Below are positions 14,648-23,558 of a stretch of DNA of 40,984 bases, in pieces. Below the pieces are notes generated by a model. It ran no database searches and had not been told where the DNA came from. It saw nothing but the letters and a program-made list of their open reading frames with translations. The translations under genes and the position numbers were made by a program. Numbering within the stretch: position 1 is the first letter of the stretch; the number at the start of each line of letters is the position of its first letter. Source of the DNA: Octopus sinensis (lineage: Eukaryota); contig NW_021835324.1 in assembly GCF_006345805.1 (NCBI RefSeq), positions 1 through 40,984 of the forward strand. Reading direction: 5' to 3'.

Positions 14648-14806
14648 GGGAGAATTCACAAAAAAAACAAAAAACGAAGACAGTTGGTGTAGACAACAAA
14701 CAGATGTATTAGTTTAACGCTCGGGAAGCGAAGAAGTCGGAACACAGAAAAACAAAACAAGGAGAGAAAATAAAGAACGTGTAGAGGCTAGCGATCTGTC
14801 ATGGCG
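14647..14806 (-). mobile_element. Family F copy lacking the hammerhead segment
   Basis: Aligns to 16515-16710 apart from a 34-nt gap at 14738/14739; flanked by (TA)n on both sides. Confidence 0.75.
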
Positions 14807-14823
14807 AAATATATATATATTAT

Positions 14824-16173: not shown

Positions 16174-16510
16174 TAAAGACCCCCTTCGGTCATGAATGAC
16201 CATGGGATTGCACCTAGAAAGTTACCCTCCTAGACACAAGTCCGGACACGGTTGTTTATGGAAGACCAGCAGTCGCCCATGCATACCAGCCTCCCCTCTC
16301 CACGCCATCAGTGTTATCCAAGGGAAAGACAAAGGTCGATACAGCTTGGCACCAGTGACGTCGCAACTCATTTCTACAGCTGAATGAACTGGAGCAACGT
16401 GAAATAAAGTGCCTTGCTCAAGAACACAACACGCAGCCCGGTCCGGGATTCGAGCTCACAACCTCACGATCGTAAGCTCGACGCTCTAACCACTGAGCCA
16501 TGCGCCTTCA
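16174..16510 (-). mobile_element. SINE family D (tRNA head, CORE-like domain, distinct tail)
   Basis: Head GGCGCATGGCTCAGTGGTTAGAGCG...CTCGAATCCC; TTGAGCAAGGCACTTTATTTCACGTTGCTCCAG shared with family C; different 3' half. Confidence 0.85.
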
Positions 16511-16514
16511 CTAT

Positions 16515-16710
16515 ATATGGGAAGAGTTTACGAAAAAAAAACACAACAAAAGACGAAGGCAGGTGGTGTACAAAACAAACAGATGTATTAGTATAACGCT
16601 CAGGAATAGAAAAAATCTTTTACGTTTCGAGCCTACGCTCTTCTACAGAAAGGGACACAGAAAACAAGGAGAGAGAAAAATGTGTGTAGTGGCTAACGAT
16701 CTATCATGGT
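16515..16710 (-). mobile_element. Family F element (Penelope pLTR-like, hammerhead-bearing)
   Basis: Homologous to 14647-14806, 24618-24679 and 27500-27655; contains the minimal hammerhead motif. Confidence 0.7.
16617..16652 (-). ncRNA. Minimal type I hammerhead-like motif with variant core
   Basis: CUUU-CUGUAGAA-GAGC(GUAG)GCUC-GAAA-CG-UA-AAAG: 4-bp stem I, 4-bp stem II, palindromic ACGU stem III, GUA triplet; core has U at position 6 plus an extra A. Confidence 0.6.
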
Positions 16711-16724
16711 GTCTGATAGATATA

Positions 16725-16875
16725 TATATGACAGGCTTCTTTCAATTTCCGTCAACCAAATCCACTTTGGTCTGCCTGAGGCTATAGTAGAGGACAATGG
16801 ACTAAGGTGCTACGCAGAGGGACTGAAACCGGAACTATGTTGCTGGGAAGCAAACTTCTCGCCACACACCCATAC
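16725..16875 (-). mobile_element. SINE family A, decayed 5' half
   Basis: GACAGGCTTCTTTCAATTTCCGTC..CCAAATCCACT..GAGGCTATAGTAGA..GGGACTGAAACCGGAAC is the reverse complement of the family A 5' half. Confidence 0.75.
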
Positions 16876-17498
16876 TTTTAATTTGTATAACCATTGATGT
16901 GAGAATATCGTGGCTCCAGACAAATAAGAAGGTAAGTGAATCAGGATTGTTCGTATGTGTGGCGTTAACTAAATAACAAAATATACGTACATACAGATAG
17001 ACAGACATTGTAGAGCAATGTATATTTGTATCCATGTAGATGGATGTGAGAGGGGTAAGTATAGGCTCTCCCAGGAGTGTTTTATAAATAAAAAATATAC
17101 ATATGAAGATGCAGACACCACAGTTAACCCATATATAGATATGTTTATGGTGTACGTCTGCAGATAGTGTTTACAGACTCGGAATGAAGACATAGTAATG
17201 TATATGAATACAAAGTCGTTGATAGAGACACACTCAAACATTGACCAATCGAAGTGAATATAAATTTTCTTAAAACACACACGTACATGCATGTAAACAC
17301 AAGCACACACAAGCAAAGATTCTCCCACAACCACACATATACATACATACACTTACTCATACATACACACACACATATATATATTATATATATATATATT
17401 TTTATATATATATATATATACATATATTTCACTCTCCACTTTTTCTCTCTCTCTCTCTCTCCATATATATATATATTTATTTATATATATATATATAC

Positions 17499-22302: not shown

Positions 22303-22759
22303 TCATCATCATCATTGTTCGACCGTGGTCGAGACAATGGAATTTACCATGCTACGCCAGACTTCACGGTCCATCATGGCATCACGGAGGTTCTGTTGCT
22401 GGATGCTTGAATCCCTGGAGATTACATCAGGGTAGGAGAATGTGAGTCATCAAATCTAAGTAGAGACTTCAAACTTGAAATCTTCAAACCCACAGTCGAA
22501 CCAATTCTACTATATGGTTCAGAAACCTGGACGTTATCAAAGAAGCTTGAGAGGTGGTTGGATGGAACATACACTCGCCTCCTTATGAGAGCTCAAAATC
22601 TCTCGTGGAAGCGCCATCCAACCAAAATGCAAATATATGGGAAACTACCACCTGTGTCATCTCTTGTGAAAGGTAGGAGAGTCCAGTTTGCTGGACATTG
22701 TTGTAGAGCTGAAAAAGAAGTAATTTCTCCTCTTCTCCTCTGGAAGTCATCTACTCGCA
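22303..22759 (-). mobile_element. 5'-truncated, 5'-inverted RTE-clade LINE
   Basis: Plus 22447-22759 encodes ...FKPTVEPILLYGSETWTLSKKLERWLDGTYTRLLM...RRVQFAGHCCR...LLLW; minus 22445-22303 encodes the continuation SYPDVISRD...AMMDREVWRSMV...* and a (TGA)n tail; TSD ATATACACACA. Confidence 0.9.
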
Positions 22760-23558
22760 ATATACACACAGAGACACACACACACACACACACACACATT
22801 GGTACGTTGTCGGTCACACATACGTAGTGTGTTTTGCTTATGCGCCAAATTGTTCTGCGGGATAACGGTCGAATAAGTTCCCTACACGATGTGAAGTGTT
22901 ATAGAACAGCTGCATATCACGGGGCAGGTGATACAAAATACCTTTTGAATGACCGAAAATGGTGGATATCGATATTTGGTCATCAGACAGGCTCATCAAT
23001 ACCACGTACTCGGATAATCCCCGAAAAATGGTGAATGGCTGGTCTTTGACTTATATGCAAGAACAGGAAAGTGTATTCGCTGATGTGTTGCAGAGCAGTC
23101 CATGTGAAAAAAACTTCATTAGAGTAATCCAAAATGCTTGAAATCTATGCTATTGTTGAACCTTCACAATAGTGAATTGAAACTATGGAAGTTTTGTAAG
23201 AGAACAGACGTCATTCCGTTGCCTGTTTTCCAATTTGTTTTTAGATTCGTCGAACAACACAAAACTTCCTTGTGCGCTGGAAAACTAAAGACCTGCAATA
23301 AATTCAGCAAGCATTATGTACATACAAATTCACTAAGTGCACACTTAATGCAATGTCTGGACTGCTAAATCTTTCAATCGATTCCAGACGGATGAAAGTT
23401 AAATTTGAACGCAGCTTAAATTGAACTGACAATGCACGGATTCGGAAGAGATGCTGCACAATATGTTATCCGATAGTCTGAAGACTCTACATACACACAC
23501 GCGCAGACATACACTCACACACATACACATACACACACACACATATGCACACACACAC

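What the first reader, a model, noticed from the sequence alone, without database searches (positions are those of the whole stretch)
16617..16652. Minimal hammerhead with non-canonical core CUG-U-N-GA-A
Seen: 36-nt type I topology, GAGC(GUAG)GCUC stem II, ACGU palindromic stem III and a GUA site, but U replaces the normally invariant A6 and an extra A follows A9. The second copy (27518-27556) also has GUUGAA, a GUC site and a different but pairable stem I (UCAUU/AAUGA), suggesting the variant is a family trait rather than decay. Standard CUGANGA searches would miss it.
Basis: partly seen in the sequence, partly recalled or inferred. Interest (0 to 1): 0.7.

Follow-up and report, generated by a model that had tools for sequence, protein, structure and literature searches.

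The report
Penelope hammerhead with fixed U6 core
This is the small hammerhead RNA motif known from the ends of Penelope-type jumping genes, but in this very abundant, recently spreading family a normally fixed core letter (A6) is U in about 99 of 100 matching copies, which likely slows self-cutting without abolishing it; cutting itself is untested.

Summary
The motif is real, on the minus strand. It is the minimal type I hammerhead in a 199-bp end-piece (pseudo-LTR) of a Neptune-like Penelope retrotransposon. U6 is a lineage trait: 13,318 exact genome matches with U6 against 140 with A6. Full-length copies carry the U6 motif at both ends of an open RT/GIY-YIG frame. Sister families here (11,795 matches) and all 22 motifs beside related elements of other animals have A6, so U6 is derived. 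Subfamilies vary only at N7 and H17, the free positions. In the youngest subfamily 5'-truncated copies start at the predicted cut more often than at a control site (24 vs 9, p=0.014); in the window's own subfamily no sharp peak. The extra A after A9 is already described, and copy 2 is decayed, not compensated. Most likely a slowed, dimer- or protein-assisted ribozyme; a dead but conserved motif is the main rival. I found no natural A6U hammerhead in 7 paper searches, but a key 2017 paper was unavailable. This scan noted U6 Penelope hammerheads before on other genomes. New variant of a known kind.

The parts
16519..16717 (-). Solo pseudo-LTR end-piece (5'-truncated copy) of a Penelope-like element, A7/A17 subfamily, between TA-rich runs
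   Evidence: 73% over 231 columns to the pLTR of full-length element L125; 40 best-scored genome loci 95-100% alike, of 3357 candidates; ends seen
16649..16652 (-). Stem I, 5' strand (CUUU)
   Evidence: sequence; related A6 family has GUUU/AAAC
16642..16648 (-). Core C3-U4-G5-U6-A7-G8-A9; U6 at 16645 replaces the usual A6
16641..16641 (-). Extra A between A9 and G10.1, the known trait of Penelope minimal hammerheads
   Evidence: PMC4209133 text and Fig. S3
16629..16640 (-). Stem II GAGC/GCUC with GUAG loop
   Evidence: centroid keeps this hairpin; other stems and loops in sister families
16621..16628 (-). G12-A13-A14, palindromic ACGU (16622-16625, predicted shared helix III of a dimer), A17; predicted cut between 16621 and 16620
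   Evidence: sequence; dimer model from PMC4209133; cut site inferred
16617..16620 (-). Stem I, 3' strand (AAAG); 102 nt from the cut to the element's 3' end
27483..27640 (+). Decayed copy of an old C17 subfamily (ends approximate): U6 kept, C3U, G10.1A, broken stem I
14648..14807 (-). Third copy with the hammerhead deleted (34 nt gone inside the outer C-G pair of stem I, junction 14739/14738)
24619..24681 (-). Fourth copy, truncated downstream of the hammerhead (ends approximate)

Best explanation
The motif is the minimal type I hammerhead in the pseudo-LTR of a young Penelope-like retrotransposon lineage in which U6 is fixed, and it likely still cuts after H17, but slowly and only as a dimer or with help from the element's protein. 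Shown: the position in both pseudo-LTRs of full-length RT/GIY-YIG elements, the fixation of U6, its derived state, and recent amplification. Inferred: two motifs pair through their ACGU palindromes to form helix III; U6 removes one or two core hydrogen bonds and lowers the rate; since copies end about 100 nt 3' of the cut, reverse transcription has to run through the 3' hammerhead, so a slow ribozyme leaves most templates uncut and costs the element nothing (possibly helps), while the rare cut templates give short copies that begin at the cut.
For: Fixation: 13,318 U6 vs 140 A6 exact matches; the 30 A6 loci read fall into the same flank types as U6 copies, as expected of later point mutations. 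All 30 loci picked by the endonuclease protein, not by the motif, have the motif downstream in sense with U6 (28 exact, 2 with a 1-nt indel). 5 of 10 long-frame regions show motif-ORF-motif at 4.4-4.5 kb (9 of these 10 motifs U6, one C6); L125 has a 1009-aa open frame with RVT_1 above cut-off and a weak GIY-YIG hit. Young: the 150 scored endonuclease hits (of 16,391 candidates) are 97-100% identical. Constraint looks catalytic: the three clusters of 3 or more copies (of 35 clusters, 141 copies) differ by 22-32% in the flanks (9-11% within) and within the family motif only at N7 and H17 (the third cluster is 3 copies, 2 of them picked as A6 mutants); H17 is A, U or C but not G at 1% or more in four sequencing runs. 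Footprint: TA-run joined at the cut site of the U17 subfamily 24 times vs 9 at an equal-length control TA site, two-sided p=0.014; by hand, 10 of 39 listed junction loci of that subfamily fall in this class, next classes 4 (first 100 of 605 matches). Literature: natural A6C is slow but active, and good in Mn2+ (PMC3088659, PMC7151607); an Anolis Penelope hammerhead cuts only with the element's protein and is dispensable for insertion in vitro (PMC11167929).
Against: No cleavage assay. In a saturation screen all single mutants of the CUGA turn had low activity and none was rescued except the C3-G8 swap (PMC9901934); A6C fell to 3.55e-6 per min in 0.3 mM Mg2+. In the window's own A17 subfamily the 26 junctions near the cut do not peak at it: 5A 1, 4A 3, 3A 7, 2A 10, start at +5 5 (by hand; no upstream baseline). 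The 24-vs-9 test is confounded by TA microhomology (the class pools three possible start points), by two CpGs in the control pattern, and was one of two subfamilies tested. Most copies were found by exact motif match, so subfamilies with other core changes would be missed and the conservation is overstated. Monomer folds predict a rod in which U6 pairs with A15.1. Stem II covariation under U6 rests on 5 copies that could be double point mutants. No RT was found upstream of the 3 loci of the window's own subfamily that were extended.
Confidence: 0.6

Rival explanations
1. U6 killed catalysis; the fold is kept as a binding or folding signal for the element's protein (or simply has not had time to drift), and cutting is dispensable for transposition.
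For: CUGA-turn mutants have low activity; hammerhead mutants do not impair insertion in vitro and no RNA reads end at the cut in Anolis; Naiad elements spread without a canonical motif; 13,318 copies come from uncut templates; no sharp junction peak in the window's subfamily.
Against: Only N7 and H17 vary between subfamilies and G17 is avoided, which is the pattern of a cutting motif; excess of cut-site starts in the youngest subfamily.
Confidence: 0.26
2. U6 is compensated (by the GUAG loop, the extra A, a metal such as Mn2+ or the element's protein) and the ribozyme is as active as its A6 sisters.
For: U6 occurs almost only with the GAGC-GUAG-GCUC hairpin: 103 matches with other stems, control 38, mostly point mutants of an A6 family; A6C is rescued by Mn2+.
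Against: No double mutant rescued the CUGA turn in one hammerhead; linkage to the loop is equally explained by a single origin; cut-start copies are rare (24 against thousands of intact copies).
Confidence: 0.12
3. The motif is chance or post-insertion decay of a canonical CUGANGA hammerhead.
For: Copy 2 and a tandem array (L094) are decayed.
Against: A6 makes up 140 of 13,458 exact matches; U6 stands in both ends of intact elements; reversed control 0.
Confidence: 0.02

Closest known systems
Minimal type I hammerheads of metazoan Penelope-like elements (Cervera and De la Pena 2014, PMC4209133; seen: main text parts 1-2 of 4, supplement parts 1-2 of 3 as text)
   Same: Type I order, short stem I, extra nucleotide after A9, G10.1-C11.1, palindromic 15.2-16.2 with no loop III, U-rich flank, place in both pLTRs, mostly solo copies. 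The Acropora digitifera Neptune motif in Fig. S3 has nearly the same layout (4-bp stem II, ACGU).
   Different: All 56 representatives of Fig. S3 have A6 (the descriptor demanded it); the only core variant reported is U3-A8. Here U6 is fixed in a lineage of more than 13,000 copies.
Natural A6C hammerhead of phage Bcep176 (PMC3088659, passages; PMC7151607, parts 1-2 of 4)
   Same: Natural pyrimidine at position 6 of the core.
   Different: A single phage example with C, tested in vitro (slow in Mg2+, good in Mn2+); here U, in a minimal dimer-type motif of a high-copy animal retrotransposon, untested.
Neptune clade of endonuclease-positive Penelope-like elements (features from Craig et al. 2021, PMC8557442, passages)
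   Same: Single ORF with DKG motif, RT, CX4CxxC linker, C-terminal GIY-YIG, pLTRs, (TA)n insertion sites, many 5'-truncated copies.
   Different: Long pyrimidine- and repeat-rich 3' region and the U6 core; clade not tested on a tree with named references.
Anolis PAc Poseidon hammerhead (Frangieh et al. 2024, PMC11167929, passages)
   Same: pLTR hammerhead upstream of the point where copies end; uncut RNA is the main template.
   Different: Different clade; canonical C3/G8 core tested there; protein-assisted cutting shown there, only inferred here.
Small dimeric hammerheads of Penelope-like elements (Lunse, Weinberg, Breaker 2017)
   Same: By the citation and summary in review PMC6765202: short palindromic stem III, cut as dimers.
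   Different: Paper not held; I could not check whether U6 variants are among its sequences.

Membership tests
Minimal PLE hammerhead (type I) | Stems I and II around the core in type I order | tested here: met
   stem I C-G here vs G-C in a related A6 family
Minimal PLE hammerhead (type I) | C3, U4, G5, G8, A9, G12, A13, A14, A15.1, U16.1, H17 | tested here: met
Minimal PLE hammerhead (type I) | A6 (consensus CUGANGAH) | tested here: not met
   U6 in 13,318 of 13,458 exact matches; so a variant, not a plain member
Minimal PLE hammerhead (type I) | Extra nucleotide between 9 and 10.1; G10.1-C11.1; palindromic 15.2-16.2 | tested here: met
Minimal PLE hammerhead (type I) | Located in the pLTRs of a PLE, in sense to the ORF | tested here: met
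   the window copy is linked by pLTR homology only
Minimal PLE hammerhead (type I) | Self-cleavage at H17 as a dimer | not testable with these tools
   only an indirect junction count, mixed
Rfam hammerhead families | Covariance-model match | tested here: not met
EN+ Penelope-like element | Single ORF with RT and C-terminal GIY-YIG between direct repeats | tested here: met
   RVT_1 32 bits (cut-off 29.6); GIY-YIG 16.9 bits, below its cut-off 22.6; motifs read; 570 relatives
Neptune clade | CX2-5CxxC linker before the endonuclease; (TA)n targets | tested here: met
Neptune clade | RT groups with named Neptune elements on a tree | not tested
   no named references fetched; related loci carry the stem II printed for the A. 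digitifera Neptune motif
Non-LTR retrozyme | Non-coding tandem repeats each with an intact hammerhead | tested here: not met
   window copy is solo; the one tandem array seen (14 units, L094) has damaged stems

The most novel reading that the evidence does not exclude
U6 is a selected attenuator: it turns the pLTR hammerhead into a gated ribozyme (off until the element's protein, a partner copy or Mn2+ completes the core), so that reverse transcription can run through it, and this helped the lineage outgrow its A6 sisters. The genome would then hold a natural A6/U6 experiment on what Penelope hammerheads are for.
Probability: 0.22. Interest if true: 0.72.

Novelty: new variant of a known kind. 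Interest (0 to 1): 0.45.

Why it matters
A6 is treated as invariant in hammerhead descriptors, so more than 13,000 motifs in this one genome are invisible to them, as many as the canonical A6 minimal motifs counted here (11,795). The role of hammerheads in Penelope elements is an open question (processing signal or passenger). A young, successful lineage with a substitution that should cripple the core, next to A6 sister families in the same genome, makes this directly testable: if U6 cuts, the core consensus must be widened; if it does not, the motif is kept for something other than cutting.

Tried and rejected
Rfam scans gave no hammerhead. Repeat finder output was swamped by microsatellites. 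Shifted register (U as an insertion, A7 as A6): rejected, it would put A at position 8 against C3 and fails in U7, C7 and G7 subfamilies. Copy 2 as compensatory evidence: rejected. Sequencing runs: no RNA holder listed, only contigs of guessed kind; contigs cannot show ends, none listed. No change at position 6 was listed in eight run layings, but known N7 variants were not listed either, so this is no evidence. Search for a full-length element of the window's own subfamily: no RT in 3 extended loci, nor in 3 loci with GGGC/GCCC stems. Further hammerhead-deleted copies: none like window copy 3 among 120 anchored 3' arms; the anchor did not catch copy 3 itself, so the test is weak. Stem II covariation under U6: 5 copies, not separable from double mutation. 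RNAcofold preferred another intermolecular duplex over the hammerhead dimer for the window copy; the program does not model the core. Paper searches for a natural A6U hammerhead: searches found none (one search gave one twister paper, seen as listing only). Lunse et al. 2017 could not be read, bioRxiv supplements are closed and figures are not held; these may bear on novelty.

Full report
Observation. The 36 nt at 16617-16652 are a minimal type I hammerhead on the minus strand: stem I CUUU/AAAG, core C3-U4-G5-U6-A7-G8-A9, an extra A, stem II GAGC(GUAG)GCUC, G12-A13-A14, the palindrome ACGU and A17. U6 is base 16645. The motif lies in a 199-bp piece (16519-16717) between TA-rich runs. Copy 2 keeps U6 but has C3U, G10.1A and a broken stem I; its UCAUU/AAUGA pairing uses flank sequence and is one base out of register. 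Rfam does not detect the motif.

U6 is a lineage trait. In the 2.72-Gb genome the 27-nt pattern matches 13,318 times with U6 and 140 times with A6; reversed controls give 0. N7 takes all four bases and H17 is A, U or C in different subfamilies. The 30 A6 loci read carry the flanks of the same subfamilies, as scattered point mutants would.

What carries it. Three of the first 30 U6 loci shared 1.0-1.3 kb upstream, which encodes a GIY-YIG endonuclease and RT in sense. A search with the endonuclease gave 16,391 candidates; the 150 scored were 97-100% identical. All 30 loci fetched this way have the U6 motif downstream (28 exact, 2 with a 1-nt indel), and 5 of 10 long-frame regions show motif-ORF-motif at 4.4-4.5 kb. 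L125 has a 1009-aa open frame with DKG motif, RVT_1 (32 bits), a CX4CxxC linker and a weak GIY-YIG match. Linker and (TA)n targets fit the Neptune clade as described in PMC8557442 (passages); no tree was built. The window copy is 73% identical to this pLTR but belongs to another subfamily, whose own full-length copy I did not find (0 of 3 extended loci). The genome looks octopus-like; that is my guess, not a call result.

U6 is derived. The same genome has 11,795 matches to a canonical A6 minimal pattern (control 17), from at least three families; one has homologous flanks, stem I GUUU/AAAC and a 3-nt loop II, and an old family has GGAC/GUCC (23 of 28 matches A6). U6 with other stems gives only 103 matches (control 38), mostly mutants of an A6 family. 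Beside 80 related RT loci from metagenome contigs, a structure-aware scan with position 6 left free found 22 motifs in 18 loci, all A6, all with the extra A; reversed control 0.

Known and not known. The extra nucleotide after A9, the palindrome and the dimer model are described (PMC4209133, main text parts 1-2 of 4 and supplement parts 1-2 of 3); all 56 representatives there have A6. A natural A6C variant is known and is slow in Mg2+ but active in Mn2+ (PMC3088659 passages, PMC7151607 parts 1-2 of 4). All single changes of the CUGA turn gave low activity in a saturation screen (PMC9901934 passages). The Anolis Penelope hammerhead cuts only with the element's protein and is not needed for insertion in vitro (PMC11167929 passages). 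Seven searches found no natural A6U hammerhead; passages of PMC7229834, PMC6155905, PMC13282606, PMC6962438, PMC6765202 and bioRxiv 10.64898/2026.07.22.740005 (part 1 of 5 and passages) did not mention one. Lunse et al. 2017 was not held, so the claim of absence from print is provisional. Unchecked notes of this scan report U6 Penelope hammerheads on other genomes; they are not support.

Does it cut? For: among 141 copies in 35 clusters, the three clusters of 3 or more differ by 22-32% in the flanks (9-11% within) and, within the family motif, only at N7 and H17 (the third cluster is small and mostly A6 picks). H17 variants listed at 1% or more in four runs are U and C, not G. Copies end about 100 nt 3' of the cut, so a cut template would give a copy beginning at AAAG. 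In the youngest (U17) subfamily such TA-joined starts number 24 against 9 at an equal-length control TA site in loop II (two-sided p=0.014); by hand, 10 of 39 listed junction loci fall in this class, the next classes having 4 (first 100 of 605 matches). Against: in the window's A17 subfamily the 26 junctions near the cut spread as 1, 3, 7, 10 and 5 over five classes, with the top class one to two bases past the cut. Microhomology and CpG decay confound the count, most copies were found by exact motif match, and no RNA end data were available. The footprint is suggestive only.

Mechanism. Most likely (0.6) a slowed ribozyme: two motifs share helix III through ACGU, possibly helped by the element's protein; U6 weakens the core; most templates stay uncut, which reverse transcription through the 3' pLTR needs, and rare cut templates leave copies that start at the cut. 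The dimer, the protein's help, the lower rate and any advantage are inferred. Rivals: a dead motif kept for binding (0.26); full compensation (0.12); decay or chance (0.02, refuted).

Verdict. A real, lineage-fixed core variant of a known motif in a known class of element: new variant of a known kind, interest 0.45. Its value is as a ready test of what Penelope hammerheads do.

Noticed in passing
window 14648-14807 (-): A pLTR copy lacks exactly the hammerhead, leaving the outer C and G of stem I: may record a polymerase jump across the folded stem.
   Followed up: partly
L094 5322-8463 (G000:C9521): Tandem array of 14 pLTR stubs at about 230-250 bp period, each with a mostly damaged U6 motif and microsatellite spacers; looks like local amplification, not a retrozyme.
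   Followed up: partly
L146-L148 (G000:C3:48592802-48592945): 56-bp tandem units that each begin at the predicted cut site; other loci show short duplications starting there.
   Followed up: partly
L005, L011, L013, L029 (centre of each locus): Head-to-head inverted pairs of U6 motifs from different subfamilies a few hundred bases apart, the arrangement described for Penelope insertions.
   Followed up: no
runs X19 laid on window 16614-16655: Another organism's run has very high depth on the motif alone, with other flanks and mostly C17: a related family in another species; its position 6 was not reliably read.
   Followed up: partly
L195-L224, L225-L252: At least three canonical A6 minimal-hammerhead families in the same genome (long stem II with 10-nt loop; GAGC with 3-nt loop; old GGAC/GUCC family).
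   Followed up: partly
window 16643-16651 (-): In the A7 subfamily U6 makes the core strand nearly self-complementary; RNAcofold predicts a 10-bp intermolecular duplex that could compete with the active dimer.
   Followed up: partly
window 16200-16510 and 16730-16880: Two other dispersed repeats flank the copy; they resemble tRNA-derived SINEs by recall, not tested.
   Followed up: no
window 7806-8083 and 8468-8745: 278-nt inverted repeat, 95% complementary, 384 nt apart.
   Followed up: no
window 22411-22827 (+): Reading frame that looks like the C-terminal end of an RTE-type LINE protein (by recall).
   Followed up: no
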